Shown piece after piece: positions 73-59,119 of a stretch of DNA of 64,000 nucleotides (positions are counted from its first letter, which is position 1; every line of letters starts with the position of its first letter). The notes beneath the pieces were generated by a model. It searched no databases. It saw only the letters and a program-made list of their open reading frames with translations, and was not told the DNA's origin. This DNA comes from Candidatus Microgenomates bacterium (GTDB taxonomy: Bacteria; Patescibacteriota; Microgenomatia; Daviesbacterales; UBA10151): the NCBI GenBank assembly GCA_016182045.1, contig JACOYE010000007.1:34121-98120 (forward strand). The letters are read 5' to 3'. Made by a program: the position numbers and the translations under genes.

Positions 73-1149
73 CTATTTCAGAACATAAATAGCTTTTTTG
101 GTGCCGCCACTCTTTTTGACCAAACCTTTTTGTCTTAAGAATTTAAGCTCCCGCAACACGGTATCATCTGAATAATCCGGAAAAATCTTTCTAAAATCTT
201 TATTAGATAAACCTTTATGTCTGTGTATATACTCCATGATTATCATCTGACGCTCATTTAACATAACCTGTTCTCCCAACTTATCCTTGATTTTGGCATC
301 AACAGAAATTCTTTGCACTTTTTCCTTGACTCTGTTCAGTTCTATGGCCACGCCTTCAGTAAAATACTCCAACCAGGGAGTCAAATCACGCTCATGAGTA
401 TCCAAAACCAGCTGATTAGAAACAGCTTGCAAAGTTAAGTAATACTGCATGGGATTTTCATCAAAATATTCCTCAAATGAGAAAAATTTCCTAATATCAT
501 AGTTATCCAAAAACATCACCAAGGTGGCTACAGCTCTGGCCACTCTGCCGTTGCCGTCTGAAAAAGGATGAATTCGGGCTATTTCGTAGTGGATGATGCC
601 TGCTTTAATAATAGGATGAGTTGCTCTTGCCTCATCAGAGTTGATCCAATTAACCAAATCTTCTATCAAATACGGCACTTCTACTGCAGGTGGAGGTGTA
701 TAAGAAATTTGTCCAGTTTTGGTATTTTTGATAACCACCTGGCGGATTCTAAACTTGCCGGAGGATTCAGGAGGTAAAATTTGCTCAGTTGTAAGTTTGT
801 GAATTTCCAAAATGGTCTCAATGGTAAAATTATATGCTCCTGATGAACCAATTTGTATTGCAATCCCGTCTATAAATTTTAAGACATTTCTATAATTTAA
901 AATCTCCTGAATATCTCGATCACGAGCAATTACCTCCTCACCTTCCAAAACATCACGTACTTCTTCAGCATTTAAAGGATTACCTTCCAAATGAGTTCCA
1001 TGGTGAACAGTTCTCTCCATGGCCTCTTTTCTAAACTTGGCCTCCCATGCAGGCACTAAGGGAGCATTCATGATCACTTCTCTAGAAGCTTCCACAATCC
1101 CAATATCTCTTAAGATCCGGTTGGTGATGGAATATTTGGGAATAAACAT
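73..1149 (-). CDS. Fic/Doc family protein (AMPylase-type) with C-terminal winged-helix
   Basis: Fic core motif HPFSDGNGRVARA in translated ORF; 358 aa. Confidence 0.85.
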   Translation of the reverse strand: MFIPKYSITNRILRDIGIVEASREVIMNAPLVPAWEAKFRKEAMERTVHHGTHLEGNPLNAEEVRDVLEGEEVIARDRDIQEILNYRNVLKFIDGIAIQIGSSGAYNFTIETILEIHKLTTEQILPPESSGKFRIRQVVIKNTKTGQISYTPPPAVEVPYLIEDLVNWINSDEARATHPIIKAGIIHYEIARIHPFSDGNGRVARAVATLVMFLDNYDIRKFFSFEEYFDENPMQYYLTLQAVSNQLVLDTHERDLTPWLEYFTEGVAIELNRVKEKVQRISVDAKIKDKLGEQVMLNERQMIIMEYIHRHKGLSNKDFRKIFPDYSDDTVLRELKFLRQKGLVKKSGGTKKAIYVLK

Positions 1150-1167: not shown

Positions 1168-1533
1168 TCAGCTAGCAGCTTTCAGCTTTTTAATAAGCCC
1201 TCCTATCATAGCACTTAATTCATCTACTTCTAGAAGAGCATTCTGTAAACTAGTCACAGAGGTCATTTTAAGACTAATTGCTATTTCTAGAGCAGCCAAT
1301 ACCTCATAAGCAGATCTCTGAGCCATCTTTAAAAATCTTATAAATTCTGCATCAGAACCTGCTCCTGATCCCTCGGCAATATTTAAAACAATACTTACAG
1401 TTGCTCTTCTTATTTGATCTACTAAACCAAATCGCTCAGTGTGGGGAAATTTTGAAGTTAATTCATATATAAAAGTTACAAACTTAATGGACCTTTGCCA
1501 AACAGTTAGTTTTCTAAATTTCTGAACATACAT
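1168..1533 (-). CDS. four-helix-bundle protein (23S rRNA intervening-sequence protein family)
   Basis: MYVQKFRKLTVWQ...LNIAEGSG pattern typical of TIGR02436-like proteins. Confidence 0.65.
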   Translation of the reverse strand: MYVQKFRKLTVWQRSIKFVTFIYELTSKFPHTERFGLVDQIRRATVSIVLNIAEGSGAGSDAEFIRFLKMAQRSAYEVLAALEIAISLKMTSVTSLQNALLEVDELSAMIGGLIKKLKAAS

Positions 1534-1669
1534 AGTCTGTCGACTGTAGACTGCAAGCTGTCAGCTATTTTAATTATTTCACATTTCCCGCAAAAAGGCT
1601 AATCTGATTTAAGAGGTTTATCTTGTAGATACCCAAGGCTAAAGCCTTTGAAACGAGTTTATATGCTTC

Positions 1670-2023
1670 CTATCCTGACAGGTTTGATGAAAGATATGAA
1701 TCTAGTTTATTCTTCTGGTCTTGAGATAAACTTGGAATAATTGCTTTTAGATAATCGGAAAAGACCGACTCGCTGGCGTTAGAGACTGCTTCTCCAAATT
1801 CCTTATCGCTCAAAAAATCGTTTAATATGTCTTTGGGATCTTTACCTACCTCTGATGCATCTTTTAATTCAGTCTGTTTTGCTTCTGGTAAAGTTTGAAT
1901 GTAGTTAATTAAAGCCTCTTTAGAACAAAGCTCTAAAAATTCCCTCGTGAACTTCTCTCTATCACCATCGTAATCGATAACATTTAATAAATCAGCAATA
2001 ATGATCTTAGGACTTTTATTCAT
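1670..2023 (-). CDS. hypothetical protein
   Basis: ORF 117 aa, acidic, no motif recognised. Confidence 0.4.
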   Translation of the reverse strand: MNKSPKIIIADLLNVIDYDGDREKFTREFLELCSKEALINYIQTLPEAKQTELKDASEVGKDPKDILNDFLSDKEFGEAVSNASESVFSDYLKAIIPSLSQDQKNKLDSYLSSNLSG

Positions 2024-2026
2024 AGC

Positions 2027-2425
2027 CTATTTTTTGTATGCTAAAATTGCTGCTCTTCCTGCACGGTAAGCTCCGTTCAGAAGAGCAGCTGCGATAGCAA
2101 CTTCGGCTCCTGCTGCTATGCCAGCTCCAACATTAATATTGATAACATTTTCCGATTTAGAGACAATCTCTGATACTGTATTTACTGCTACTAAACCAGC
2201 ACCTGTTCCAAGGAGTCCGCCTATTAAGGTAACTACCGGAGCCACCACTTTCCCCATTACAGTTTGCTCAACAGTTGATTGCCGACTCTGCCTGTCTTTT
2301 ACAAAGTTATCACTAACAGATGTAGGGGACTCTTCCGGAGTTGACGGTTGTACTTGTGGCTCTTCTCCTCCTGTTTCTGACATAAGTATAAGGAATAGAA
2401 TACTACATTTGTCGTAGATTGTCAA
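2027..2425 (-). CDS. hypothetical Gly/Ala-rich membrane protein
   Basis: ORF 132 aa, G/A-rich hydrophobic C-terminal half. Confidence 0.4.
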   Translation of the reverse strand: MTIYDKCSILFLILMSETGGEEPQVQPSTPEESPTSVSDNFVKDRQSRQSTVEQTVMGKVVAPVVTLIGGLLGTGAGLVAVNTVSEIVSKSENVININVGAGIAAGAEVAIAAALLNGAYRAGRAAILAYKK

Positions 2426-2473
2426 AGATAGTTTTACAATTTTTACAAGAGGCTACAAGATCTTAAATGTTAA

Positions 2474-2512
2474 TACCATTTTCTTGTACGATCGCACATC
2501 AAATTGTCAACT
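2474..2512. repeat. 37-bp repeat with 14-bp perfect palindrome TGTACGATCG(C/T)ACA, copy A
   Basis: ACCATTTTCTTGTACGATCGCACATCAAATTGTCAAC; near-identical copies at 3019 and 10471. Confidence 0.8.
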
Positions 2513-3016
2513 TCAGAAAGAAAGTTTTCCAGAAAGACGTTCAACCTCCATTACCATCACCCATTTATCTATTCCCACATCCTTTATATAGGAATCCAAT
2601 TTATCGAAGACGTCTTTTTTAGAAATCCAAACACTCTTCTGTAGATGTTTAAATCCCCACTTTTTTAAATTCCTTCTAAAAAGATTTCTGATAATTCTTC
2701 TCTGTTCCGGGATATCAAAAATGACAATTCGCCATTTTCCGTCCCATTTACTCTCATCAAATCCATCACTAATTAATCCTCTTCCCTCATCTGTCAACTT
2801 GATTACAATATCTTTTTTAAGTTTAACTTGCTCAATTAATCCACCTTCTCTTAATCTTTTAAGAGCTTGAGATAAAGAAGATTTTTTAAGTTCAGGAGCA
2901 CCATAGTGGTAACGATAGTGATGATAAGCGAAATCCTCCACTCTAACATACCCATCAATTGTTTTTTCCAAGATTAACAGTATTGCCCTAGTCAAACTAT
3001 TTTTGTAGACTTTCAT
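2513..3016 (-). CDS. PaaX-like transcriptional regulator domain protein
   Basis: WDGKWRIVIFDIPE...LQKSVW C-terminal PaaX-like pattern; 167 aa. Confidence 0.5.
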   Translation of the reverse strand: MKVYKNSLTRAILLILEKTIDGYVRVEDFAYHHYRYHYGAPELKKSSLSQALKRLREGGLIEQVKLKKDIVIKLTDEGRGLISDGFDESKWDGKWRIVIFDIPEQRRIIRNLFRRNLKKWGFKHLQKSVWISKKDVFDKLDSYIKDVGIDKWVMVMEVERLSGKLSF

Positions 3017-3018
3017 AC

Positions 3019-3057
3019 CAATTCATTGTACGATCGTACACCAAAATGTCAACTATA
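3019..3057. repeat. 37-bp palindrome-containing repeat, copy B
   Basis: ACCAATTCATTGTACGATCGTACACCAAAATGTCAAC, direct orientation relative to copy A. Confidence 0.8.
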
Positions 3058-3062
3058 AGGTC

Positions 3063-6000
3063 TTATTTATCTAAACCTAAATATTCATCCCAACTTTTGA
3101 TTTCTAAATCTTCCATTTTCTTAGAAACTAGGCTTGAAATTAACAGTTCTGCTGCTTGTAAGTTAGTCACTAAAGGTATACCTAAGTCTATACAATTTCT
3201 TCTGATAATATATCCATCAGTTTCTACTCTCTCAGATTTCGGCTCACTAATATTTATAGCCAGATCAATCTGACCTTTCTGTAAAAAGTCTAACACAGAA
3301 GGGTGTTTACCCTCAGATATTTTATACAGTCTGGTGTTGTTAACCTTCACATCTTTTAAGAATTTTGAGGTATGTTCTGTTGCATATATCTTAAAACCTA
3401 ATATTGCAAGCTGATTGGCAGACTCAAGTAAAGCTACTTTATTTATTTGCCCCCCAATTGACAAAAATACACTATTTTTAGGTATCTTAAATCCTGTGGC
3501 AAGCAAAGATTTAAGATAAGCTTCCCTTAGATCATCACCAAAACATGCCACTTCCCCAGTTGAGGACATCTCAACTCTAAGTCTTGGGTCAGCCCCTTTA
3601 ATTCTGTTAAAAGAAAACTGGGGAGCTTTCACTCCCACGTAATCTAAATCTATGGTCTTAAAATCACCAGTTATATTCTCTCCCAACATTACTCTTACTG
3701 CCATATCAACAAAATTATAACCTGTTACTTTTGACACAAACGGAAAGGAACGGGATGCACGAAGGTTTAACTCAATCACCAAAATCTTTAAATCTTTGGC
3801 TAAAAACTGAATATTAAATGGACCATTAATATTTAATTCGCGAAGTACTTTTTGGGTAGCATCCTTGATTTTTCTGACAGTTTTCAAATAGAGCTTTTGC
3901 GGAGGTAGGACAATGGTGGCATCACCAGAGTGGACTCCGGCATTTTCTATATGTTCCGTGATGGCATAAATGAGAAGCTGACCTTTTTTAGCGACTCCGT
4001 CAATTTCAATCTCTTTTGCGCCTTCTACAAACTTTGAGATTACCACTGGGTATTCTGAGGATACATTTGATGCTTGTTTCAGATATTTTTTTAGATCCGA
4101 TCCAGAATATGCTACATTCATGGCAGAACCTGACAAAACATAAGAGGGTCTTATTAAAACAGGATATCCTATTTTTTTGGCAAAAGTTAAAGCATCATCT
4201 ATTGTCTTTAAACTTTGCCATACAGGTTGTTCTATCCCCAACTTATCCAAAAGCTTGGAAAATTTGTTTCTATCTTCTGCCTTGTCAATACTTTCAGGTG
4301 AAGTACCTAATATCCGATATCTTGCTCTAAAACAATCCATGGCCAAATTATTTGAAACTTGGCCCCCAAAACCTAAAACCAGACTTGTATTTTGTTCCAT
4401 ATCATAGATATCACTTACTCGTTCAAATGTCAGTTCCTCAAAATACAACTTATCCGCAATATCATAATCTGTGGAGACTGTTTCCGGATTACAGTTAATC
4501 ATGATCGTCTGAAGACCCTTAGCCTTTAAAGTTTGAGCCGCAGTCACAGCACACCAGTCAAACTCCACAGATGATCCAATCCGATATGGCCCTGATCCTA
4601 AAACAATAGCTTTCTTACTATCCACTGTACCCTGTCCCCTGTCACCTATTTCAGATTCTTCTCCATGATATGTCAGATAAAGATAGTTAGTCTTGGCAGG
4701 AAACTCCCCTGCCAAAGTATCAATGTGTTTGACTTTGGGAACTATTCCATTCTTTTTTCTAAATTTTCTTAATTCCTCTTCAGTCATCTTGAATGTTTTA
4801 GCCAATAACTGATCTGAAAACCCCAATTTCTTAGCATCCATCACTAACTTGCTTGCCCCACGAAACTTTAGTGAAGTGGGGTTACTTGTTACTTGTCTCT
4901 TGTCACTTGGTAGATTTTTCTCAAAATCTACTATCTCTTTTATCTGATACAAAAACCAAGGATCAATTCCTGTTGCTTGATAGATACTATCTACAGATTC
5001 TCCTTTAACAAACCTTTGAGCAATGACAAAAAGCCGCTGGGTGGTGGGTAAAAGCTTGGTATCATCTATCCCATTTCCCAGTAACCCGTCTTGACCAGTC
5101 TCTAACATTCTGATTGCTTTTTGTAAACTTTCCGGAAAACTTCTACCAATTGCCATGACCTCCCCCACGCTTTTCATCTCAGAACCTATTTGCTCATAAG
5201 CTCCCACAAATTTTTGCAAGTCCCATCTGGGGATTTTAACCACAATATAGTCTAGGGAAGGTTCAAAAAAGGCAGAGGTAGATAAGGTGACACTATTTTT
5301 TAGATTTGGCAAACTATATCCTAAACCAATTTTGGCGGCAATATAGGCTAAGGGATAACCTGTGGCTTTGGAAGCTAAGGCTGATGAGCGAGAAAGTCTG
5401 GCATTAACCTCAATCACCCGGCAGTCGTTATTCTGGGGATTTAGGGCAAACTGGATATTACACTCCCCCACAATCCCCAAATGCTCAATAACTTTTAAAG
5501 ATAGCTTTCGCAAAAAATGATATTGATAATTGTTTAAGGTTTGAGATGGAGCAACCACAATACTTTCACCTGTATGTATACCAAGCGGATCCATATTTTC
5601 CATGTTACAAACAGTGATTTTGTTACCAGCTTTATCTCTGACCACTTCATATTCCACTTCTTTCCAATGTTTCAAATATTCCTCCACAGCAATTTGGGGG
5701 ACATGGGCTAATGCATTGGTAGCCATCCTGATCAATTCTTCTTTATTGTCAACCACCCCTGAACCCAAACCGCCCAGGGAAAAACCTGATCTAATTAGTA
5801 AGGGGTATCCTATTCTTTTTGAAATTTTTACAGATTCTTCGATAGTAGAAGCAAATCCCCCTTTCGGCACTTTAATATTAATCTTGGCAAGTTCTTTTGC
5901 AAAAAGCTCTCTGTCTTCTGTGATTTCGATTGATCTTACGGGGGTTCCTAAAACTTTTACACCATACTTCTTAAAGACTCCAGCTTTTTCGAGACTTAGC

Positions 6001-6278
6001 CCACAATTTAAGGCAGTTTGGCCCCCAAATGAAAGCATTACCCCATCCGGTTTCTCTTTTTCGATGATTTTTTCCACAAAATATGGGGTGACTGGCAAAA
6101 AGTAAATTTTCCCTGCCAATTCTTTTGAGGTCTGAATAGTGGCTATATTGGGATTTATTAAAACTGTCTCTAAGCCTTCTTCTTTCAAAGCTTTTAAGGC
6201 TTGAGATCCGGAATAGTCAAATTCCCCAGCCTCGCCTATTTTTAAAGCTCCTGAACCAAGAACTAAAACTTTTTTCAT
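3063..6278 (-). CDS. carB: carbamoyl-phosphate synthase large subunit
   Basis: 1071 aa, duplicated ATP-grasp halves, N-term MKKVLVLGSGALKIGEAGEFDYSGSQA. Confidence 0.95.
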   Translation of the reverse strand: MKKVLVLGSGALKIGEAGEFDYSGSQALKALKEEGLETVLINPNIATIQTSKELAGKIYFLPVTPYFVEKIIEKEKPDGVMLSFGGQTALNCGLSLEKAGVFKKYGVKVLGTPVRSIEITEDRELFAKELAKINIKVPKGGFASTIEESVKISKRIGYPLLIRSGFSLGGLGSGVVDNKEELIRMATNALAHVPQIAVEEYLKHWKEVEYEVVRDKAGNKITVCNMENMDPLGIHTGESIVVAPSQTLNNYQYHFLRKLSLKVIEHLGIVGECNIQFALNPQNNDCRVIEVNARLSRSSALASKATGYPLAYIAAKIGLGYSLPNLKNSVTLSTSAFFEPSLDYIVVKIPRWDLQKFVGAYEQIGSEMKSVGEVMAIGRSFPESLQKAIRMLETGQDGLLGNGIDDTKLLPTTQRLFVIAQRFVKGESVDSIYQATGIDPWFLYQIKEIVDFEKNLPSDKRQVTSNPTSLKFRGASKLVMDAKKLGFSDQLLAKTFKMTEEELRKFRKKNGIVPKVKHIDTLAGEFPAKTNYLYLTYHGEESEIGDRGQGTVDSKKAIVLGSGPYRIGSSVEFDWCAVTAAQTLKAKGLQTIMINCNPETVSTDYDIADKLYFEELTFERVSDIYDMEQNTSLVLGFGGQVSNNLAMDCFRARYRILGTSPESIDKAEDRNKFSKLLDKLGIEQPVWQSLKTIDDALTFAKKIGYPVLIRPSYVLSGSAMNVAYSGSDLKKYLKQASNVSSEYPVVISKFVEGAKEIEIDGVAKKGQLLIYAITEHIENAGVHSGDATIVLPPQKLYLKTVRKIKDATQKVLRELNINGPFNIQFLAKDLKILVIELNLRASRSFPFVSKVTGYNFVDMAVRVMLGENITGDFKTIDLDYVGVKAPQFSFNRIKGADPRLRVEMSSTGEVACFGDDLREAYLKSLLATGFKIPKNSVFLSIGGQINKVALLESANQLAILGFKIYATEHTSKFLKDVKVNNTRLYKISEGKHPSVLDFLQKGQIDLAINISEPKSERVETDGYIIRRNCIDLGIPLVTNLQAAELLISSLVSKKMEDLEIKSWDEYLGLDK

Positions 6279-6289
6279 AACCCTCCTTT

Positions 6290-6366
6290 GTCATTGCGAG
6301 GAGCGAAGCGACGTGGCAATCTTTACTAATCAAGATCCTTCGGTCACTTCGTTCCCTCAGGATGAC
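6290..6366. repeat. ~77-bp palindromic hairpin element (GTCATT...GATGAC) in carA-carB intergenic spacer
   Basis: gtcattgcgaggagcgaagcgacg...cggtcacttcgttccctcaggatgac inverted arms. Confidence 0.7.
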
Positions 6367-6400
6367 AAAATGCGTTTAGAAATTTTACGCATTTTGTCAA

Positions 6401-7468
6401 CTACAAATATGAGACAAATTCATCAAACAAATATCCTGCATCAACTGGACCTGGATTTGCTTCAGGATGAAACTGAACTGCCAAGAATGGCTTTTTTTTG
6501 TGTCTTATTCCTTCATTAGTGCCGTCATTTAAGTTGACAAACCACTCCACCCATTCTGATTCCAAAGATTTCATATCCACTGCAAAACCATGATTTTGAG
6601 AAGTGATTATGGCTTTTTTATTGGTCACATCTTGAACCGGCTGATTTTGACCTCGGTGGCCAAATTTTAATTTATAGGTGTTGCCTCCTACTGCCAAAGC
6701 CAATATTTGACTTCCTAAACAAATACCAAAAGTTGGAACGCCTTCCCTGAGTAGTTGTTCCACAACCTTAATGGTTTTTTTGGCCTGTTTTGGATCTCCC
6801 GGACCATTGGAAACTACCACTCCATCAAATTTAAGTTTTAAAGTTTTCGGATTGAAGTCCCAAGGCACACGAGTAACCCTAACATCTCTTTTTAAGAGTG
6901 AACGAACTATATTTTCTTTGGCTCCACAATCAATTAGCACAATATTTCTCTTTCCAGATCCATAGGTTTCTACCTCATCCACACTCACATATGGCAAAAC
7001 ATTCTCAGCATTGGGATCATACTGTCTGATAGCTGAAGACTGTTGACTGACGATTATCCTACCCAGCATCACCCCATGCTCCCTTAATTTGATAGTCAAA
7101 GCCCTAGTGTCTATCCCCTGTAGCGCTGGTATCCCTTCATCTTTTAACCACTCAGCCAAAGTTTTCTGGCTTTCAAAATGTGACGGGTGATCAATGTAAT
7201 TTTGAACAATTAATCCTTTAACTTGAATTTTTCCAGATTCCCAAAAATCTTTTTTTGGCACTCCATAATTTCCCACCAAAGGGTAAGTTAGAACCAAAAT
7301 CTGGCCAAAATATGATGGGTCTGTTAAAGATTCCGGATATCCCACCATGCCAGTATTAAAAACCACCTCTCCTGACCCCGATTCAATCGGGGCTGAGGTG
7401 GAATGTTGGAAGCCAAAGGACTCTCCGATAAATTCTGTCCCATCTGATAAAATCAGCTTGCCTGTCAT
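6401..7468 (-). CDS. carA: carbamoyl-phosphate synthase small subunit (glutamine amidotransferase)
   Basis: 355 aa, GICLGSQ amidotransferase Cys motif, CarA N-domain. Confidence 0.95.
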   Translation of the reverse strand: MTGKLILSDGTEFIGESFGFQHSTSAPIESGSGEVVFNTGMVGYPESLTDPSYFGQILVLTYPLVGNYGVPKKDFWESGKIQVKGLIVQNYIDHPSHFESQKTLAEWLKDEGIPALQGIDTRALTIKLREHGVMLGRIIVSQQSSAIRQYDPNAENVLPYVSVDEVETYGSGKRNIVLIDCGAKENIVRSLLKRDVRVTRVPWDFNPKTLKLKFDGVVVSNGPGDPKQAKKTIKVVEQLLREGVPTFGICLGSQILALAVGGNTYKLKFGHRGQNQPVQDVTNKKAIITSQNHGFAVDMKSLESEWVEWFVNLNDGTNEGIRHKKKPFLAVQFHPEANPGPVDAGYLFDEFVSYL

Positions 7469-8400
7469 GTCAGTCTACCTAGGATTAATCCTAATAATGC
7501 TTCTCTTACATATAACCCGTTTCGCGCCTGAGCAAAGTAAATCGCATTCGGATGTGTATCTAATTGTGGGGTAATTTCATTAACTCTGGGCAGTGGATGC
7601 ATAAGTTTTATTCCCCTATCCAAAAATTTTTTAAAAGTTGCATCTAAAATAAATTTATCCTTTACTTTTTTATACTCATTTAAATCCTGAAATCTTTCCT
7701 TTTGCACTCTGGTTTGATATAGAAAATCAGCTTGCAGATTATCAGGTAATTTATCAAACTGTTCATATTCCACCCCTCTTTGAACTAAGATTTTTAAAAA
7801 TTCCTCAGGCATAGCAAGAGTTGGATGGGCGATAAAGATTTGTTTAATTTTAAAAAGAGAAAGTGCCAAAGATAAAGCATGCACTGTTCTGCCATATTTT
7901 AAGTCCCCCATCAAAGCTACAGTTATCCCATCCAGTTTACCTGCTTCCTTAAGCATGGTATAAAGATCCAGCATGGTTTGAGTTGGATGCTGGTTGGGGC
8001 CATCTCCTGCATTAATCACTGGTATTAAAGCTATCTCTGCTGCCTCTTTGGCAGCCCCAGCTTTGGGGTGTCTAATGATTAAACAATCAGCATAAGAATC
8101 CATAATCCTGATGGTGTCTGAGAAACTTTCGCCTTTATGGATAGAGGTTGACTGAGGGTCATTAAAACCAATGATACCCATGCCTATTTTTTGAGCTGCT
8201 GATCTAAATGATTGCTCTGTACGGGTGGATTGTTCAAAAAATAGTAATCCTGCAATTTTACCTTGAGCAATAGTGTAGTTAGATCTGTCACTTTTTACAA
8301 ATTGAGGATCAAATTTTTTGGCAGTTTTTAAAATAAAAAGTAACTCCTCTTTGGAGAAATCATTTATATCTATAATATCTCGTCCCTTAAAATTTTGCAT
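7465..8400 (-). CDS. pyrB: aspartate carbamoyltransferase catalytic subunit
   Basis: 311 aa, STRT..SF and HPLPR motifs; 4-bp overlap with carA. Confidence 0.9.
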   Translation of the reverse strand: MQNFKGRDIIDINDFSKEELLFILKTAKKFDPQFVKSDRSNYTIAQGKIAGLLFFEQSTRTEQSFRSAAQKIGMGIIGFNDPQSTSIHKGESFSDTIRIMDSYADCLIIRHPKAGAAKEAAEIALIPVINAGDGPNQHPTQTMLDLYTMLKEAGKLDGITVALMGDLKYGRTVHALSLALSLFKIKQIFIAHPTLAMPEEFLKILVQRGVEYEQFDKLPDNLQADFLYQTRVQKERFQDLNEYKKVKDKFILDATFKKFLDRGIKLMHPLPRVNEITPQLDTHPNAIYFAQARNGLYVREALLGLILGRLT

Positions 8401-8408
8401 TTTTTTTC

Positions 8409-8433
8409 AAAAAAAATCCGCCCCTAGGCGGAT
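8409..8433 (-). terminator. Rho-independent terminator between pyrC and pyrB
   Basis: perfect palindrome ATCCGCCCCTAGGCGGAT followed on minus strand by T8. Confidence 0.7.
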
Positions 8434-8522
8434 AAAACTACCTTTTACAACTAACTTAAAAATGTATTTTTTAAGCATAAACCTTGGGATAGTTTAATGT
8501 TAAAAAAACCTTTTGTCAACCT

Positions 8523-9590
8523 TCAATTTGCGGGGAACATGATTTTTCCAAAAAGTCCGGAAATTTTTCCATTCTCAAAAACCACTTTTCCTCTTAAAGC
8601 TACCTTTTTAATTTTCCCTTTTACCTCTACTCCCTCAAATGGAGTCCAGCCGCATTTGGTGTATAAATTATTAGAATCGATGCGATATTTTTCTTCCATA
8701 TCAATTTCTACAAAGGTATCTTCCTGTTGAGGAATATTAAAAATTTTTCTGGGATTTGTATTTGTTAATTCAATTAATTTTTCTATTGTTAATCTGTCTT
8801 CTTTCACAGCTGTCAAAAGTAAAGGTAGGGCAGTTTCAAGTCCCGGTACCCCATGTGGGGGTTTTTCAGATTTCTTTTCTGCGATTGTATGTGGAGCATG
8901 ATCTTGAGCAATAATATCCATTGTGCCATCTGAAATTGCCTTCCATAAGGCATTCTGGTCTTGCTTCATACCAAGATCTGGTTTCATCTGACCGAATGGC
9001 CCTAATCTTTTGGTATCTGCATTTGTTAAAAAGAGATGGTGGCAAGTAACTTCACAAGTTATCGGTAAACCTTCTGTCTTAGCCTTTCTGATACGATTAA
9101 TGTCTTCTGCCAAAGCCACATGAGCCACATGTAGTCTGTTTCCGTTACGTTTAGCAAGCTTTATGGCCAGAGCCAATTTGTCTTTCTCTGCATGAACTAT
9201 TAAAACTCTCTGCTTTGGCCACCTTTCAAAAATGGTCTGCAGGGCATGCGGATCTTCTTGAAGTAATGTCCCTGTGGTATGATTCATATAAACTTTAAGT
9301 GCCATAACCTTAGTTTTAATTTGGTCAAAATATTTGGAAGATTCTAAAGTCCCTCCAAAATTAAATCCTACATCACAATAAATTCTACCATTAGCAAGTG
9401 AGATCTTTTTATCCACAGCCTCTGGAGTAATAGTGGGCTCAGGATTATTGGGCATATCTAAAATAGCTGTATATCCTCCAGCAATAGCAGCCTTAGTTCC
9501 AGTCTCAAAATCCTCTTTTTGGGTGGCTCCAGGTTCTCTAAGATGTGTATGTACGTCAATTAAGCCCGGTAAGCTAATTATTTTTGACAT
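8523..9590 (-). CDS. pyrC: dihydroorotase
   Basis: 355 aa, N-term GLIDVHTHLREPG metal-binding HxH motif. Confidence 0.85.
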   Translation of the reverse strand: MSKIISLPGLIDVHTHLREPGATQKEDFETGTKAAIAGGYTAILDMPNNPEPTITPEAVDKKISLANGRIYCDVGFNFGGTLESSKYFDQIKTKVMALKVYMNHTTGTLLQEDPHALQTIFERWPKQRVLIVHAEKDKLALAIKLAKRNGNRLHVAHVALAEDINRIRKAKTEGLPITCEVTCHHLFLTNADTKRLGPFGQMKPDLGMKQDQNALWKAISDGTMDIIAQDHAPHTIAEKKSEKPPHGVPGLETALPLLLTAVKEDRLTIEKLIELTNTNPRKIFNIPQQEDTFVEIDMEEKYRIDSNNLYTKCGWTPFEGVEVKGKIKKVALRGKVVFENGKISGLFGKIMFPAN

Positions 9591-9630
9591 TAGATCTATA
9601 TATTATACATTGTATGCTAATATAAATATT

Positions 9631-9900
9631 GTGGCCAAAAAAGGACTCAATAAGTTTATATTTCATAAAGAGCTTATACGACAACTTGTGACCCTTTCCA
9701 CCTCAGCTTTTGGTTTGGCAGCAGCTTTAGCCTGGAATGAAGCCATTCAAACTTTTGTCAAACAGTATATTGAAAGATATTTTCCAGAACAATCCGGAGT
9801 CATATCAAAATTTATTTATGCAATAATAATTACTGTTTTAGGAGTCTTTATTACATATCAGCTCTCCCGTTTAGCTTCCAGATGGGGAGTTAAAAAATGA
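9631..9900 (+). CDS. small membrane protein (start uncertain, possibly GTG)
   Basis: C-terminal part of ORF 9433..9900 lying outside pyrC; two predicted TM helices. Confidence 0.3.
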   Translation: MAKKGLNKFIFHKELIRQLVTLSTSAFGLAAALAWNEAIQTFVKQYIERYFPEQSGVISKFIYAIIITVLGVFITYQLSRLASRWGVKK

Positions 9901-10208
9901 TGATATTCCAATCAATAATTGGAGAGGTTGAGCTTACAAATGAAAGAAAATCCCACATAATCCTTAAGCACCCAGAATTAAAAACCCACATCAAAAAAAT
10001 TTCTCAAGTTTTATCTTCTCCAGATACCATTAGGCGAAGTAAACTAGATGAGGAATCATTGTTATTCTACAAGTATTTTGATACAATCAAGAAGGGTAAA
10101 TACATCAGTGTAACGGTCAAAAAGGGCAAGAGAAATTTCATTTTGACTGCTTATATTACTGATAAAATAAGAGCAGGGGAAATATATGAAAGCGAAAAAG
10201 AAGCTTAA
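9897..10208 (+). CDS. DUF4258-like small protein, putative toxin
   Basis: 103 aa; overlaps start of downstream DUF2283 gene; family assignment tentative. Confidence 0.4.
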   Translation: MMIFQSIIGEVELTNERKSHIILKHPELKTHIKKISQVLSSPDTIRRSKLDEESLLFYKYFDTIKKGKYISVTVKKGKRNFILTAYITDKIRAGEIYESEKEA

Positions 10209-10419
10209 TTTTTATTATGATAAAGGTGCGGATGTGCTTTATGTTTCTAATGGTAAACCATCTGCCAAAGATGAAACATTTGAAACAGAGGATGAGGTTG
10301 TAGTGAGAAAAAATCCCAAGACTGGAGAGGTTAAAGGCTTTACTATCTTACATTTCTTAAAGCGTGGAGCTAAAGGGCCAACCGTTACACTTCCTTTTCA
10401 GTTTTCTTTCCAGCAATGA
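10186..10419 (+). CDS. DUF2283 domain protein, putative antitoxin
   Basis: YYDKGADVLYVSNGKP motif characteristic of DUF2283. Confidence 0.6.
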   Translation: MKAKKKLNFYYDKGADVLYVSNGKPSAKDETFETEDEVVVRKNPKTGEVKGFTILHFLKRGAKGPTVTLPFQFSFQQ

Positions 10420-10470
10420 CCCAAAAAGGCTTAGCTCCAATATTAATAGTCTTAATCATTGCTGCCTTAA

Positions 10471-10509
10471 ATACCATTTCCTTGTACGATCGCACACCAA
10501 AATGGTATA
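10471..10509. repeat. 37-bp palindrome-containing repeat, copy C
   Basis: ACCATTTCCTTGTACGATCGCACACCAAAATGGTATAAA in convergent intergenic spacer. Confidence 0.8.
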
Positions 10510-10549
10510 AATTTTGGAAGCTACAAACGCAAGGTGTCACCTTGTGAGG

Positions 10550-11623
10550 CTAAGTAATCTTCCCATTCTCTACCCTTAAAATCCTGGCTGAATCTAAAAA
10601 GGATTTGGGGATATTTTCTAATTCCACTGTGGCTATTATGGTTTGCTGTTTTCCTACTATTTCCACCACATGAGCACGATGTTTACTATCCAGTTCTGAG
10701 AAAATATCATCCAGTAAAAGTATTGGCCTTTTACCCAAAATTTTGGCCATATATTCCAACTGAGAGAGTTTAAAAGCCAAAGTGGCTGTTCTTTGCTCAC
10801 CCCTAGAACCATAATGGGCCAAGTTTCTACCATCCAGCAAAATTGCGAAATCATCCCGATGAGGTCCAATTAATGTTTGAGCTGCAGCCACCTCCCTACC
10901 ATTTGTTTCCATAAGTTTCTCCATACTAACTATGCTTGGTTTATACTCAAATGTAAACTCCCCCAAAGGTTTTTCCAATCCATCAATGAACTCAAAAAAT
11001 ACTTGTCTCTTATCACTAATCACTTTTCCCTTATCCACCAACTCTTTTGTCCAGTAATCCAGTTCATCCACCCTACTTTTTCCTTCCCTGATTCTTTTTA
11101 AAACCCTATTTCTGGCTACTAAAAACTGTTCATATGCTGTCAGAGCTTTCTTATAATCACTATCCACCTGGGCCAAGGCCAAATCCAGATGCCATCTTCT
11201 TAAAGATGGCGGTCCTGTCACCATATTTATATCCGAGGGATAAAAAATTACCGCCGGCAAATTACCTATAAAATCCAAAACCCTTCTTGAGATACCATTA
11301 ACTAAAACCTTCTTTCTAAAATTAACTTCCCCACTTCTGTTAAGAATAACTAAAAGTTCTGTGTCTCCGCCAGCTGGCGGATCAGTTAAGAATGCTTCTG
11401 CTCTACAAAACTTCTCTCCCTCCTTAATTAACTCATCCTCATTCTCAACTCTTAATGATTTAGTAATTGATAAAAGGTAGATTGCCTCCAAAAGATTGGA
11501 TTTGCCGGCAGCATTATTACCAACTAAAATGGTGGGGCGTTGGTCAAAATCCAAAGACAGGTTAGGATAATTACGAAAGTTTGTTAAATTAAGGCTCTTC
11601 AGAAACATAACCAAAATTTTCAA
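10550..11623 (-). CDS. recF: DNA replication and repair protein RecF
   Basis: Walker A GNNAAGKSNLLEA, LLLDDIFSELD signature. Confidence 0.9.
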   Translation of the reverse strand: MKILVMFLKSLNLTNFRNYPNLSLDFDQRPTILVGNNAAGKSNLLEAIYLLSITKSLRVENEDELIKEGEKFCRAEAFLTDPPAGGDTELLVILNRSGEVNFRKKVLVNGISRRVLDFIGNLPAVIFYPSDINMVTGPPSLRRWHLDLALAQVDSDYKKALTAYEQFLVARNRVLKRIREGKSRVDELDYWTKELVDKGKVISDKRQVFFEFIDGLEKPLGEFTFEYKPSIVSMEKLMETNGREVAAAQTLIGPHRDDFAILLDGRNLAHYGSRGEQRTATLAFKLSQLEYMAKILGKRPILLLDDIFSELDSKHRAHVVEIVGKQQTIIATVELENIPKSFLDSARILRVENGKIT

Positions 11624-11720
11624 TTACCAATAACCAATTTTCAATGAATTTACAATGTTTAAATGTTTGAAAATTTTAAAATTGGAATTTGATTGTAAAT
11701 TGAAAATTGTAAATTGTAAA

Positions 11721-13094
11721 TTACTTCCCTTCCCAGTGTCCCAACCCCAAAAATTCTCTGACATGGTACGGCAATTGTTCTTCCCTAAAAAATAGGCTTG
11801 GTTTAAGTCCAAATAACCCAATCAACATGATGATCGCCCCCAGTGCCATCAAAATCGGTGTGGTACCAAAAATATCTGCCAGCAGTCCCGCAAGAAGAAT
11901 CGGTAAAAGAGACAGTCCCGACATGGCTACTCCAAGAGTGGCAAAAACTTTGCCTCTGTCTTGCTGGGGAGTATTTTCCTGTAAGACTGTTTGAGATGGA
12001 ACCAAGATTGATACCATCACTATCCCCAACAAAAATGACACTACAACCAATACGGCAGATAGAGGGGGTTGATAAAAAAATGGTAATGGTTTGGGGCGAG
12101 GAAGATGCTGAATAGCTGGAACGATAATCGGGGCAATCCCCACCAAGAAAAACAGTAATCCCCCAAAAAGAATTGATCTTGCCACAACTATTCTTTTGAT
12201 TAATCTTTGACCGATTCTACCTAAAACTAATCCACCGATGACTATTCCTAAACCTAAAGGTATCACTAAAACGTATGAGGCATCTGTGGCAGTAATTTGT
12301 AAAGTTTTCTCAAAAAATGAGGGCATTAAAACTGCCAAAACCCCAATCAAAAGCTGAACCAAAGCCAAGATTACTACCGAGGTTAGTACCGACAACTTAC
12401 CTCGTATCAAGTGAATGGTCTCCAAAATTTCAAATAACCCTACCTCCTTTATGGTTGACAGATGTCTTTTTCTGATGGCCCAAATTAATTTTTTCCCCTG
12501 CATATCTGGTGCTGTCACAATGGAGGGAAAAATCAAGGAAAGTAAGAAGGCAAGGGATACAAGTGTCCCACCTAATCCAAAAACAAAATTAATGCCTAAA
12601 TGATTTATCAAAGGCCCTGCCAAAGCAAAACCTACCAAAAAACAGGAGAAAACTGTGCTGGAAAATATCGCATTGGCTGTTATTAGTTGATCCTTTTTGA
12701 CAATAATTGGAACTGCTGAGGCTTCAGCTGGAGTATAAAATTGCCCCAAAGCATTAACGAAAAAGGCAACAACAAGAATTGCCGGATAACTTTCTTTAAA
12801 AAATATCAGACTAAAGAAAGCCAAACTTAGCAAAAAATCAATCATCATGATAATTTTTTTTCGATCAGTGATATCAACTAAAACTCCTGAAAAAAGACCC
12901 AAAAGTAAGGCAGGAAGGTAGATGGCAAAAATAAGGGCTGAAACAGCGACTGATGAACCTGTTAATTGAAATACCCAGATAATTAAAGCAAAGTTTAATA
13001 AGTTATAGGAAAGCTGAACCAAAATTTGATTAATCCAAAGGTTTAAAAACCCCCGGTTTTTTATTACCGAGGTAAAACTGACTCTTGCGGTCAT
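11721..13094 (-). CDS. MFS transporter
   Basis: 457 aa, ~12 predicted TM segments. Confidence 0.7.
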   Translation of the reverse strand: MTARVSFTSVIKNRGFLNLWINQILVQLSYNLLNFALIIWVFQLTGSSVAVSALIFAIYLPALLLGLFSGVLVDITDRKKIIMMIDFLLSLAFFSLIFFKESYPAILVVAFFVNALGQFYTPAEASAVPIIVKKDQLITANAIFSSTVFSCFLVGFALAGPLINHLGINFVFGLGGTLVSLAFLLSLIFPSIVTAPDMQGKKLIWAIRKRHLSTIKEVGLFEILETIHLIRGKLSVLTSVVILALVQLLIGVLAVLMPSFFEKTLQITATDASYVLVIPLGLGIVIGGLVLGRIGQRLIKRIVVARSILFGGLLFFLVGIAPIIVPAIQHLPRPKPLPFFYQPPLSAVLVVVSFLLGIVMVSILVPSQTVLQENTPQQDRGKVFATLGVAMSGLSLLPILLAGLLADIFGTTPILMALGAIIMLIGLFGLKPSLFFREEQLPYHVREFLGLGHWEGK

Positions 13095-13099: not shown

Positions 13100-14032
13100 T
13101 CAGCTATTATACCCTTTTTGACAATTAGGGCAAAGGTATGTGCCTCGACCTCCTAATTGAATCTTCTTAATTTTCGTGCCACAAATTTTGCATGGATGTT
13201 TATCACGTCCATAGACATAAGCATAATCTAGAAAATAACCTTTATGGCCTTCAGCATCTACAAAATGAGCTCTGGTGGAACCTCCATATTTAATCCCATC
13301 TTTTAAAGATTTAATAATCCCTTTGTAAAGTTTTTTAAATTGTTCATCATTCAAATCTCTTACTCTTACTCGTGGGTCTAAACCTGCACTAAAACAAGCC
13401 TCATTAGAGTAAATATTCCCCACTCCAGAGACTACTGTTTGATCCATAGTAGCCACTTTTACAGGCATGGATTTATGTCTTAATAGGTTTTGTTTAAGAA
13501 TTTGCCAAGTAAATCCTCTTTCTAATGGCTCTGGTCCCAGATTTTTCAATGAACTGTCCACTGTAACCTGTCCCCTGTCCACTGCTTTAACCCATCCGAA
13601 CTTTCTTTGGTCATTAAAATACAAATGCGAACCATCTGAAAAACTGAATATAATCCTAGTATGCGCATTTGGCATTTTCCCCACCATATCTGGAGTAGGA
13701 TGCCCACCTACTAACCTTTGACCATCCTCATAAATTAATTGTCCAGTCATTTTTAAATGGAATAGTAGGGTAACAAAATTGTCATTCCCGCGTAGGCGGG
13801 AATCCAATTCCGAACGAGACTTTTTTAATTGGATCCCTGCATTCGCAGGGACGACGTCCACACCTAAATACTTAGCTTTTCTCCATATATTGAGTACTTT
13901 TTTACCCTCCACCAAATTTGGATTTCCAATGAAAGATTTAGCAGAATTTATTTGGATTTTGGTAATTTTTAACCCAACAATTTTCTTTTGTAACCCCAGT
14001 TTAATTGTTTCAACTTCAGGTAACTCCGGCAC
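13100..14032 (-). CDS. mutM: formamidopyrimidine-DNA glycosylase with in-frame palindromic-element insertion
   Basis: MPELPEVE N-terminus, C-terminal zinc finger CKICG...CPNCQ; ~30-aa insert between RKAKYL and LLFHLKMTG. Confidence 0.85.
   Translation of the reverse strand: MPELPEVETIKLGLQKKIVGLKITKIQINSAKSFIGNPNLVEGKKVLNIWRKAKYLGVDVVPANAGIQLKKSRSELDSRLRGNDNFVTLLFHLKMTGQLIYEDGQRLVGGHPTPDMVGKMPNAHTRIIFSFSDGSHLYFNDQRKFGWVKAVDRGQVTVDSSLKNLGPEPLERGFTWQILKQNLLRHKSMPVKVATMDQTVVSGVGNIYSNEACFSAGLDPRVRVRDLNDEQFKKLYKGIIKSLKDGIKYGGSTRAHFVDAEGHKGYFLDYAYVYGRDKHPCKICGTKIKKIQLGGRGTYLCPNCQKGYNS
13781..13855. repeat. ~75-bp palindromic element (family GTCATTCCCGC...GCGGGAATGAC), in-frame within mutM
   Basis: gtcattcccgcgtaggcgggaatccaatt...aattggatccctgcattcgcagggacgac; encodes VVPANAGIQLKKSRSELDSRLRGNDN. 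Confidence 0.8.
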
Positions 14033-16677: not shown

Positions 16678-16757
16678 TGATCCCGACGAATGTCGGGATC
16701 CAATTAAAAACCTACCTCAAATGGTTAATTGGATTCCCGCCTATGCGGGAATGACGA
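16678..16757. repeat. palindromic element (same family as 13781 and 29044), intergenic copy
   Basis: gatcccgacgaatgtcgggatccaatt...aattggattcccgcctatgcgggaatgac. Confidence 0.8.
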
Positions 16758-16810
16758 TGTTATTTATTGTAGATCAATTGAAGCTGAATTCCAATCAGGA
16801 GAGTTCATAT

Positions 16811-58750: not shown

Positions 58751-59119
58751 CTAATACCAGATGACCTTGCCTATTATTTGTTCCTTGTTAATCGATCCAA
58801 ATTTTCTGCTATCTAGGCTATCTGTTTTATTATCTCCTCGGACATAAATTGTACGATCGTCCAAACTATGGATACGTTTAACTACCTCTTTGCCGTCAAC
58901 CTTAATCACCACAATATCACCCGCTTTTAAACCGACCAGTTTCCACCAATTAAGCACTAATACATCCTGATCTGGTTTTAATGTGGGCAGCATACTATTT
59001 CCGGAAACAGTAAATCTAAGAATGGGAAACAATTTCACCTTCAGTTGGGTAACCTGACGGAATCCTGGCTGGTTCCATGCCTTTTGTTTTCCAGAAAATC
59101 TCGGCAATTTCCTGGACAT
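58751..59119 (-). CDS. sodX: nickel-SOD maturation peptidase (signal peptidase I-like S26), true start probably internal
   Basis: S26 serine motif GNSMLPTL; directly downstream of sodN. Confidence 0.65.
   Translation of the reverse strand: MSRKLPRFSGKQKAWNQPGFRQVTQLKVKLFPILRFTVSGNSMLPTLKPDQDVLVLNWWKLVGLKAGDIVVIKVDGKEVVKRIHSLDDRTIYVRGDNKTDSLDSRKFGSINKEQIIGKVIWY

What the first reader, a model, noticed from the sequence alone, without database searches (positions are those of the whole stretch)
2474..3057. PaaX-like regulator gene bracketed by 37-bp direct repeats with a perfect 14-bp palindrome; third copy 7.4 kb away
ACCA(T/A)TT..TTGTACGATCG(C/T)ACA..CAAA(A)TTGTCAAC occurs immediately downstream (2474-2512) and immediately upstream (3019-3057) of the 167-aa PaaX-like gene, and again at 10471-10509 with extended dyad ACCATTT...AAATGGT. 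A partial core (TTGTACGATCGT) lies at ~58847 inside sodX. Either operator sites of this regulator (a small regulon) or a miniature cassette bounded by repeats.
Basis: seen in the sequence. Interest (0 to 1): 0.6.

Follow-up and report, generated by a model that had tools for sequence, protein, structure and literature searches.

The report
Repressor gene bracketed by own operators
The repeats on both sides of this small gene in an uncultivated groundwater bacterium are very probably the DNA sites that the gene's own protein binds to switch itself off, and in 67 related genes one amino acid always changes together with the two central bases of the site, which points to part of how the protein reads DNA.

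Summary
Three copies of a ~38-bp imperfect palindrome, ATACCAWTT-N7-CGATCG-N7-AAWTGGTAT, lie at 2473-2510, 3015-3052 and 10471-10508. They score 46-49 bits against a matrix built only from other genomes; random sequence reaches 0.3 at most.

The flanked gene (2513-3016, minus strand) belongs to a Candidatus Daviesbacteria/Microgenomates genome. It encodes a 167-aa "mini-PaaX": a winged helix plus a Cas2-like PaaX_M domain, with no effector domain.

The upstream copy holds the best sigma-70-like promoter in the region, TTGACA-16-TACAAT, with the ATG 8 nt after the -10. That fits autorepression of a leaderless or nearly leaderless mRNA.

The bracket is not a one-off. All 67 homologous loci have an upstream site and 61 have a downstream site abutting the stop codon. 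Arm sequences co-vary within each locus.

The strongest evidence is residue 127, at a hairpin tip of the Cas2-like domain. It is K/R whenever the core is CGATCG and Q/N whenever the centre contains G or C: 67 of 67 loci, about 13 independent switches.

Extra orphan sites are rare, and copy 3 is not conserved in position. I found no evidence of mobility. The role of the downstream site (looping or roadblock) is inferred. This is a new variant of a known kind.

The parts
2513..3016 (-). [quoted passage not shown]
   Evidence: PF20803 PaaX_M 2e-22; Cas2 profiles marginal; TIGR02277 30.9 bits against a cut-off of 264.55. AF2 model pLDDT 76.7. Best PDB fold matches are E. coli PaaX 8a39 (E 4e-7), 3l09 and 3kfw. 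100% identical to HYT18_00610 of a Candidatus Microgenomates bacterium.
3015..3052 (-). On the minus strand, -35 TTGACA is at 3052-3047, the CGATCG core at 3036-3031, -10 TACAAT at 3030-3025, and the ATG starts at 3016. The last two bases of the palindrome are the first two bases of the start codon.
   Evidence: It is the best promoter-like match (11/12) in 1500-11800. PWM score 49.2 bits. Homologous sites lie upstream of all 67 homologues.
2473..2510 (-). It reads TTGACA-16-TACAAG on the minus strand; core at 2489-2494.
   Evidence: PWM score 46.6 bits. 61 of 67 homologous loci have a D site abutting the stop codon. The closest relative, L099, has the same TTGACA-type D. As RNA it folds no better than shuffles (z -0.25).
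10471..10508 (.). Orphan copy 3: the most symmetric copy (ATACCATTT...AAATGGTAT), core at 10487-10492. It lies between the 3' ends of a DUF2283 gene (plus strand, ends 10419) and recF (minus strand, ends 10550).
   Evidence: PWM score 48.8 bits. ORF and Pfam context. No site at the orthologous position in L096-L098. As a transcript it would fold well (z -4.9).
58849..58863 (.). Partial core TTGTACGATCGTCCA inside the sodX-like S24/S26 peptidase CDS. Probably not a cognate site.
   Evidence: PWM score only 5.8 bits against a random maximum of 0.3. It lies inside ORF 58751-59119. It resembles the site at 26545-26574 (pair I7).

Best explanation
The three repeats are binding sites for the protein encoded between two of them.

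The protein is a mini-PaaX repressor: a winged helix plus a Cas2-like dimerisation domain, without the effector-binding C-terminal domain of PaaX. I infer that it binds as a dimer to a ~38-bp palindrome. The winged helices would sit on the outer arms (ATACCA / TGGTAT). The beta2-beta3 hairpin tips of the Cas2-like domains (residue 127) would read the two central base pairs of the CGATCG core.

The upstream site spans the -35 to -10 region of the regulator's own promoter, and the start codon follows the -10 by 8 nt. Bound protein would therefore exclude RNA polymerase and hold expression of a leaderless or nearly leaderless mRNA at a set level.

The downstream site, placed directly after the stop codon, is a second cognate site that travels with the gene. 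It most likely works as an auxiliary operator. It could strengthen repression by looping the ~540-bp gene, or it could act as a protein roadblock that stops transcription entering or leaving the gene.

Copy 3 is a lineage-specific orphan site of uncertain function.

Shown: the sites, the promoter match, conservation of the architecture, and the covariation. Inferred: dimer geometry, repression, the leaderless start, and looping or roadblock.
For: 1. The sites are far beyond chance.
2. The upstream site contains the best promoter-like match in the region, TTGACA-16-TACAAT, 8 nt before the ATG.
3. Across 67 homologous loci from Daviesbacteria and other Patescibacteria genomes, 67 have an upstream palindrome centred on CG[AG][TC]CG. 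60% of these have both a good -35 and a good -10.
4. 61 of 67 have a downstream site whose core mostly starts 2-13 nt after the stop. This holds whether the next gene is co-directional (34) or convergent (25).
5. Arm sequences are paralogue-specific and co-vary within a locus: 18.9 of 28 positions identical within a locus against 11.4 between loci, and a locus's own U is the best match to its D in 33 of 61. Common descent of duplicated units cannot produce that excess.
6. Residue 127 is K/R with a CGATCG core in 41 of 41 loci, and Q/N with a centre containing G or C in 26 of 26. That is 67 of 67, with about 13 independent switches on an NJ tree. Paralogues in the same genome differ. D sites agree in 58 of 61.
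7. A distant 261-aa PaaX-like protein from a GC-rich organism has R at this position and a CGATCG palindrome upstream of its gene.
8. Wing residues 63-67 co-vary with outer-arm positions.
9. The fold matches E. coli PaaX. PaaX binds TGATTC-N27-GAATCA, a 39-bp span, and represses its own Px promoter by blocking RNA polymerase (review PMC9493321).
10. U and D do not fold better than shuffles as RNA, and there are no Rfam matches.
Against: - No binding, transcription-start or expression data exist; the organism is uncultivated.
- The function of the downstream site is not established. The oligomeric state needed for looping is unknown, and U-D spacings (523-570 bp) show no helical phasing.
- A regulator whose conserved sites are mostly its own flanks has no obvious output, and the protein lacks an effector domain.
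- Copy 3 is not at a promoter.
- The Cas2-like domain keeps an invariant D-I-P-E motif at the position of Cas2's conserved Asp, plus many invariant charged residues. A pure dimerisation role does not explain these.
- In some sub-families the -10 is poor or the site lies 30-50 nt from the ATG.
- Domain orientation in the model is uncertain (pTM 0.48).
Confidence: 0.78

Rival explanations
1. Local regulon reading. The downstream and orphan sites exist mainly to control neighbouring genes: the SoFic-like Fic gene that follows the regulator in all orthologues, or the small secreted 'MxQKGLAP...ILSTFKF' proteins. The regulator would then be an ordinary local repressor with two or three target promoters, not a self-contained unit.
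For: - Window copy 1 and its counterpart in L099 read TTGACA-16-TACAAG. In L099 an ATG follows at the leaderless position.
- The carB-regulator-Fic order is conserved in the orthologue group, and the Fic protein matches SoFic at 1e-49.
- 'MxQKG' genes lie divergently next to U in L002, L003, L006, L013 and L095. One lies 49 nt downstream of an orphan site in L076.
- 34 of the 59 D sites that have a called downstream gene are followed by a co-directional gene 5-260 nt after the regulator's stop codon.
Against: - Only 9% of D sites with a co-directional neighbour have both promoter hexamers. This is fewer than at convergent neighbours (24%) and far fewer than at U sites (60%).
- 25 D sites face the 3' end of a convergent gene.
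- Downstream neighbours are unrelated housekeeping genes across paralogue groups.
- In the window the next ORF has its own TTGACA-17-TATTCT promoter at 2425-2397.
- Copy 3 has no gene to control.
Confidence: 0.25
2. Selfish or mobile-element reading. The unit is, or descends from, a tiny mobile cassette comparable to an insertion sequence or a RAYT gene with its flanking REP palindromes. The flanking palindromes would be the ends recognised, and possibly cut at the CGATCG core, by the Cas2-like domain. Orphan copies would be solo sites left by excision or recombination.
For: - The anatomy resembles an IS: one end overlaps the gene's promoter and the other overlaps or abuts the stop codon.
- There are several paralogues per genome, each with private ends.
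- The invariant D101-I-P-E104 sits at the position of Cas2's conserved Asp.
- Copy 3 directly follows an 18-codon N-terminal gene fragment, where L097 has an intact 169-aa gene. It may therefore mark a deletion junction.
- Gene content next to U and D varies among orthologues.
- In a GC-rich organism the same kind of palindrome is perfectly conserved at 10 or more intergenic loci, one of them next to a PaaX-like gene.
Against: - Orthologues sit in the same carB...Fic slot across genomes at 75-90% protein identity.
- Paralogues within a genome are 45-65% identical, never near-identical.
- Orphans are rare, about 3 in 790 kb.
- No target-site duplications and no transposase or recombinase domains were seen.
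- U and D match slightly better as direct repeats (18.9) than as inverted repeats (16.6).
Confidence: 0.08
3. RNA-level reading. The palindromes act as hairpins in transcripts, as intrinsic terminators, stabilisers or RNase III processing sites that cut the regulator mRNA out of read-through transcripts from carB.
For: - Copy 3 folds into a -15.7 kcal/mol hairpin (z -4.9).
- D lies in the 3' untranslated region, and U would be transcribed by read-through from carB.
Against: - U and D in the window fold no better than shuffled sequence (-6.2 and -7.7 kcal/mol; z +0.61 and -0.25).
- No T-run follows them, and the terminator scan found none there.
- There are no Rfam matches.
- An RNA hairpin does not explain covariation of the two central bases with a protein residue.
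Confidence: 0.03

Closest known systems
PaaX, the phenylacetyl-CoA-responsive repressor of the paa genes (E. coli, Pseudomonas; PDB 8a39, 3l09)
   Same: - Same two N-terminal domains: winged helix plus Cas2-like PaaX_M.
- A long palindromic operator of about the same span: TGATTC-N27-GAATCA against ATACCA-N26-TGGTAT.
- Repression of its own promoter by occluding RNA polymerase (PMC9493321).
   Different: - No PaaX_C effector domain, and far below the TIGR02277 cut-off.
- No paa genes nearby.
- An invariant CGATCG/CGGCCG core read by a Cas2-like-domain residue.
- A second site fixed at the stop codon.
- Several paralogues per small genome, each with private sites.
Phage immunity repressors with flanking operators (lambda CI with OR and OL; 186 CI with FL/FR). 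This comparison rests on my own knowledge.
   Same: - The repressor gene lies between cognate operators.
- One operator overlaps the repressor's own promoter.
- Distant sites cooperate by DNA looping to sharpen autoregulation.
   Different: - A different fold.
- No phage context.
- Looping is not shown here.
- The loop would be ~540 bp and contain only the regulator gene.
RAYT transposases with flanking REP palindromes, and IS elements whose terminal repeats overlap the transposase promoter and stop codon. This comparison rests on my own knowledge.
   Same: - The gene is bracketed by the palindromes its product recognises.
- Repeats are paralogue-specific.
- Occasional orphan copies lie in intergenic DNA.
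   Different: - No HUH or DDE transposase domain.
- Very few dispersed copies in Daviesbacteria.
- Stable synteny, and no identical copies.
Cas2 (CRISPR adaptation protein)
   Same: The C-terminal domain keeps the Cas2 sequence signature (FDIPE...RR..L..GF..LQKSVW) and the ferredoxin-like fold. NCBI names some homologues Cas2.
   Different: - It is fused to a winged helix.
- Profile scores are marginal.
- No regularly spaced repeat family appeared in the repeat search, and none of the flanking genes I scanned is a cas gene.
- The covariation suggests it is used here for sequence-specific DNA recognition.

Membership tests
PaaX-family repressor | [quoted passage not shown] | tested here: met
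   The AF2 model shows helix-strand-helix-helix-wing topology in residues 8-74. Fold hits include PaaX 8a39, 3l09 and many MarR/PadR proteins. Weak MarR_2 hit.
PaaX-family repressor | Central Cas2-like PaaX_M domain (PF20803) | tested here: met
   E 2.1e-22, 79.5 bits against a cut-off of 24, residues 89-161.
PaaX-family repressor | C-terminal PaaX_C effector (phenylacetyl-CoA) domain, and full-length equivalog score | tested here: not met
   The protein ends at residue 167 with no PF08223 hit. TIGR02277 scores 30.9 bits against a cut-off of 264.55.
PaaX-family repressor | Association with paa catabolic genes | tested here: not met
   Neighbours are pyrC-pyrB-carA-carB upstream and small ORFs, a four-helix-bundle protein and a Fic protein downstream.
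PaaX-family repressor | Long palindromic operator overlapping its own promoter (autorepression) | tested here: met
   Met in silico only. A 38-bp palindrome spans -35 to -10 of the best promoter-like match. Compare TGATTC-N27-GAATCA and Px autorepression in PMC9493321.
PaaX-family repressor | Release from DNA by phenylacetyl-CoA | not testable with these tools
   Needs biochemistry. The lack of the effector domain makes it unlikely.
Cas2 (CRISPR-Cas adaptation) | Passes the Cas2 profile and lies next to cas1 or a CRISPR array | tested here: not met
   TIGR01573 scores 24.3 against a cut-off of 24.5. PF09827 scores 24.9 against 23.8, but over 39 residues only. No regularly spaced repeat family, and none of the flanking genes scanned is a cas gene.
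REP/RAYT system | HUH-Y1 transposase flanked by REPs, with tens to hundreds of dispersed REP copies | tested here: not met
   There is no transposase domain. Only about 3 orphan sites were found in 790 kb of Daviesbacteria sequence. Flanking by cognate palindromes is met.
Insertion sequence | Transposase, terminal inverted repeats, target-site duplication, near-identical copies at different places | tested here: not met
   Orthologues are syntenic. Paralogues are 45-65% identical. U and D match better as direct repeats. No duplications were seen at the ends.
Intrinsic terminator / structured RNA | Stable GC-rich hairpin followed by a T-run, or a match to a known RNA family | tested here: not met
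   U and D fold no better than shuffles. No terminator call at these positions. No Rfam match at E<=1.

The most novel reading that the evidence does not exclude
The Cas2-like domain is not just a dimerisation module. It docks on the CGATCG/CGGCCG dyad centre and, through its conserved Asp (D101 in the D-I-P-E motif), may nick or cut there. The bracketed genes would then be autonomous units whose product acts on both of its own ends. That would be a Cas2-based counterpart of an IS or RAYT/REP element, or a self-insulating or self-excising cassette. The orphan palindromes, such as copy 3 beside a truncated gene, would be scars of past excision or recombination.
Probability: 0.08. Interest if true: 0.9.

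Novelty: new variant of a known kind. Interest (0 to 1): 0.58.

Why it matters
Gene regulation in the Candidate Phyla Radiation is almost unexplored, because these bacteria are uncultivated and have few recognisable transcription factors.

- **A family with readable sites.** These short PaaX-like proteins occur in two to five detected copies in most of the genomes represented, and each copy's binding sites can be read directly from the genome.
- **A testable recognition rule.** K/R at position 127 goes with an A·T centre, and Q/N goes with a G/C-containing centre. The rule places a Cas2-fold domain in sequence-specific DNA recognition, which has not been described for PaaX or Cas2. It could be checked with a single EMSA swap experiment.
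- **Possible tools.** The many naturally distinct repressor-operator pairs might also serve as parts for synthetic biology.
- **Annotation.** Many homologues are currently labelled 'CRISPR-associated endonuclease Cas2', which is misleading.

Tried and rejected
- **Cyanobacterial HIP1 repeat.** My first guess from the CGATCG core. GCGATCGC is absent from the window, and the organism is a Daviesbacterium.
- **Intrinsic terminator or RNA hairpin for U and D.** Rejected on folding z-scores and on the lack of Rfam matches.
- **D as a general promoter for the downstream gene.** Promoter hexamers are rare at D, and they are no commoner when the neighbour is co-directional.
- **REP-like high-copy element in Daviesbacteria.** Only about 3 orphan sites in 790 kb.
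- **Conservation of copy 3.** The orthologous recF-pyrC interval in L096-L098 carries other toxin-antitoxin genes and no site.
- **Exact look-up of the window protein's own contig.** Failed twice, so I could not scan the rest of the 184-kb source contig.
- **Sequence search of the PDB.** Gave only weak MarR hits; the fold search was needed to see the relation to PaaX.
- **Literature searches.** I found nothing on short PaaX-like proteins in these bacteria.
- **Defence and phage libraries.** PADLOC and PHROGs gave only marginal Cas2 and regulator hits for the protein.

Full report

Yes. The 15-mer TTGTACGATCGYACA occurs exactly at 2484-2498, 3026-3040 and 10482-10496. It occurs with one mismatch at 58849-58863. 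Only 0.04 matches are expected by chance. The repeat finder returns these copies as its top two direct-repeat families.

Aligned, the copies read ATACCAWTTYMTTGTACGATCGYACAYCAAAWTG(G/T).... The element is a ~38-bp imperfect palindrome with conserved outer arms ATACCA/TGGTAT and an invariant CGATCG centre. The inner 14-bp palindrome is perfect only in the upstream copy.

A weight matrix built solely from sites in other genomes scores the three copies at 46.6-49.2 bits. The next window hit scores 5.8 bits (58838, inside the sodX-like peptidase gene). The maximum over 30 random sequences is 0.3. So the window holds exactly three strong sites.

**2. The gene and the organism**

ORF 2513-3016 (minus strand, 167 aa) is 100% identical to HYT18_00610 of a Candidatus Microgenomates bacterium. 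Its closest relatives are all Candidatus Daviesbacteria. It hits PaaX_M, the Cas2-like central domain of PaaX, at 2e-22. It hits Cas2 profiles only marginally and is far below the PaaX equivalog cut-off.

An AlphaFold model (pLDDT 76.7) shows a winged helix (residues 8-74) followed by a beta-alpha-beta-beta-alpha-beta domain. Its best solved-structure matches are E. coli PaaX (8a39), the Jannaschia PaaX-like protein (3l09) and Rv0674. Many winged-helix regulators and VapD/Cas2 proteins follow. There is no third, effector-binding domain. I call it a mini-PaaX.

On the minus strand the local gene order is: recF, copy 3, a toxin-antitoxin-like insert on the other strand, pyrC, pyrB, carA, carB, copy 2, regulator, copy 1, two unknown ORFs, a four-helix-bundle protein, and a SoFic-like Fic protein.

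**3. The upstream copy is a promoter with an operator inside it**

Read on the gene's strand, copy 2 is TTGACA-16 nt-TACAAT. This is 11 of 12 consensus positions and the best promoter-like match between 1500 and 11800. The CGATCG core fills the end of the spacer. The ATG begins 8 nt after the -10, and its first two bases are the last two bases of the palindrome.

There is no room for a ribosome-binding site, so the mRNA is probably leaderless or nearly so (inference). A protein bound here would exclude RNA polymerase.

**4. The bracket is a conserved architecture**

A scan of one genome per species returned 67 loci encoding homologues, with two to five paralogues detected in most of the genomes represented.
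- All 67 have a palindrome centred on CG[AG][TC]CG just upstream of the start. 60% of these combine a -35 of at least 5/6 with a -10 of at least 4/6.
- 61 of 67 also have a second palindrome whose core usually starts 2-3 or 12-13 nt after the stop codon, so its left arm overlaps the end of the coding sequence.
- The second site is present whether the next gene is co-directional (34 loci) or convergent (25 loci).

The arms differ between paralogues but match within a locus. On average 18.9 of 28 arm positions are identical between a locus's own U and D, against 11.4 between loci. A locus's own U is the best match to its D in 33 of 61 cases. If U and D had simply been duplicated together and then drifted, a locus's U would be no closer to its own D than to the D of a sister paralogue. 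The excess therefore needs either a common reader or concerted evolution.

**5. The encoded protein reads the sites**

I aligned the 67 proteins and compared each column with the consensus half-site. Residue 127, in the motif LQ-K-SVW, stands out. It lies in the turn between strands beta2 and beta3 of the Cas2-like domain.
- It is K or R in all 41 loci whose upstream core is CGATCG.
- It is Q or N in all 26 loci whose core centre contains G or C (CGGCCG, CGACCG, CGGTCG).
- On a neighbour-joining tree built without that column, both characters change about 13 times, always together.
- Paralogues in a single genome differ in core type. For example, CP066688.1 carries one K/CGATCG unit and two Q/CGGCCG units. 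A genome-wide cause such as restriction-site avoidance is therefore excluded.
- Downstream sites agree in 58 of 61 loci.
- A very distant 261-aa PaaX-like protein from a GC-rich organism has R at this position and a CGATCG-centred palindrome 26 nt upstream of its gene.

The recognition helix is nearly invariant. Wing residues 63-67 and residues 81-85 co-vary with outer-arm positions 13-14, but this second signal is not corrected for phylogeny.

Together these results suggest a dimer with winged helices on the outer arms and the Cas2-like hairpin tips at the dyad. K/R with an A·T centre and Q/N with a G·C centre would fit minor-groove contacts (inference). The geometry agrees with E. coli PaaX, whose operator is TGATTC-N27-GAATCA (39 bp) and which represses its own promoter by blocking polymerase (PMC9493321).

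**6. What the downstream site does**

It is generally not a promoter. Only 9% of D sites (co-directional neighbour) and 24% (convergent neighbour) have both hexamers. It is not a good RNA hairpin in the window (z -0.25). Downstream neighbours are unrelated housekeeping genes, including Fic, Fpg, DprA, aminopeptidase N, Mur ligases, sortase-like proteins, ZIP transporters and EF-P.

Its fixed position at the gene's end and its shared specificity point to a role tied to the regulator gene itself. I favour an auxiliary operator. One option is cooperative looping of the ~540-bp gene; D keeps the symmetric ACCA arms, whereas the left arm of U is compromised by the -35. The other option is a protein roadblock that insulates the gene from read-through and antisense transcription. 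Neither is shown.

In the window and its closest relative (L099, 90% identity) D has a TTGACA left arm and TACAAG. In L099 an ATG follows at the leaderless position. In this sub-lineage D may therefore also fire as a weak promoter.

**7. Copy 3 and other sites**

Copy 3 lies between the 3' ends of a DUF2283 gene and recF, so it has no promoter to control. In orthologous loci that extend 10 kb either side, only U and D are present. The recF-pyrC interval carries different toxin-antitoxin genes there.

Across 790 kb of homologous loci plus the window, I found only three convincing orphan sites. A metagenome scan for the symmetric pattern found a few more, all intergenic (L073, L076, L085, L094, L077). 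Some sit in front of small secreted-protein genes.

Copy 3 directly follows an 18-codon ORF start, MTQKGLAPILIVLIIAAL. This resembles the N-termini of that gene family. In L097 the same slot holds an intact 169-aa gene. Copy 3 may therefore mark a deletion junction. This is the main hint that the palindromes might be recombinogenic.

**8. Rivals**

- A mobile or selfish-cassette reading (IS-like or RAYT/REP-like) fits the anatomy and the conserved Cas2-type Asp. It is contradicted by stable synteny, divergent paralogues, rare orphans and the absence of any transposase.
- An RNA-structure reading is contradicted by the folding controls and by the protein-DNA covariation.
- A local-regulon reading may hold for some sites but does not explain D at convergent gene ends.

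**9. Novelty and verdict**

I found no paper describing short PaaX-like proteins in the Candidate Phyla Radiation or their sites. The wider PaaX_M superfamily is large: 3921 clusters at E<=1e-3. The tight group around this protein is small: 14 clusters at E<=1e-30.

The finding is a real, conserved, self-bracketed autoregulatory unit. It is a new variant of the PaaX-type repressor, not a new kind of system. It comes with an unusually clean, experimentally testable recognition rule that implicates a Cas2-fold domain in reading DNA.

Noticed in passing
L068, L071, L072, L074, L075, L079, L081, L087, L089-L091, L093 (metagenome contigs Ga0194056-58 and others): A GC-rich (55-63% GC) unrelated organism carries the perfect 34-bp AT-rich palindrome ACCAATTATTGATGCGATCGCATCAATAATTGGT at 10 or more distinct intergenic loci, between convergent, divergent and tandem genes. 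One copy lies 26 nt upstream of a 261-aa PaaX-like gene. Perfect identity at so many loci looks more like a dispersed repeat than a typical regulon.
   Followed up: partly
window 10416-10547 (+), compared with L097:1279-1788 (-): A 43-codon ORF overlaps the DUF2283 stop (ATGA) and starts MTQKGLAPILIVLIIAAL, like the N-termini of secreted 'MxQKG...ILSTFKF' proteins. The similarity ends exactly where copy 3 begins. L097 has an intact 169-aa gene in the same slot, preceded by the mini-palindrome ATACCAttagTGGTAT. This may be a deletion junction marked by the palindrome.
   Followed up: partly
window 26545-26574 and 58843-58872: Two further CGATCG-centred sites are 80% complementary to each other and share TTGGACGATCGT. 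One lies in the divergent intergenic region between unknown genes 25677-26519 (-) and 26618-27559 (+). The other lies inside the sodX-like peptidase gene. They may be sites for another paralogue encoded elsewhere in the genome. All five CGATCG hexamers in the 64-kb window lie in such palindrome-like contexts.
   Followed up: partly
window 9897-10419 (+): A PBECR3-like nuclease ORF (103 aa, below the Pfam cut-off) and a DUF2283 ORF (77 aa) form a toxin-antitoxin-like pair inserted between recF and pyrC. Relatives carry HicAB modules at this position, so the interval is a variable hotspot.
   Followed up: no
window 73-1149 (-), and the same position in L002-L009, L080, L083, L088, L095-L098: A 358-aa Fic protein matching the SoFic defence model (1e-49) lies downstream of the regulator in most loci of the orthologue group, separated from it by variable small ORFs. 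A functional link between the regulator and Fic is possible but untested.
   Followed up: partly
window 13772-13851, 16681-16764, 29088-29115: Another repeat family, GATTCCCGC-N-GCGGGAATGAC hairpins, occurs in several copies. Two groups in inverted orientation lie about 2.9 kb apart (I1, I5, I16, D9). It is unrelated to the finding.
   Followed up: no
window 8523-9590 (-): The dihydroorotase ORF is 355 aa. Its match to the NCBIfam and Pfam dihydroorotase models starts well inside several of the profiles (for example profile position 46 of NF003271 at protein residue 3). Orthologues in L096-L098 are also 353-355 aa, so this looks like a naturally short form, not a truncation.
   Followed up: no
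NCBI annotations of homologues P0008, P0011, P0021: Several members of this family are named 'CRISPR-associated endonuclease Cas2' in public records, although they are winged-helix fusions. No cas gene appears among the genes called in the loci whose annotations I saw (L096-L099).
   Followed up: no
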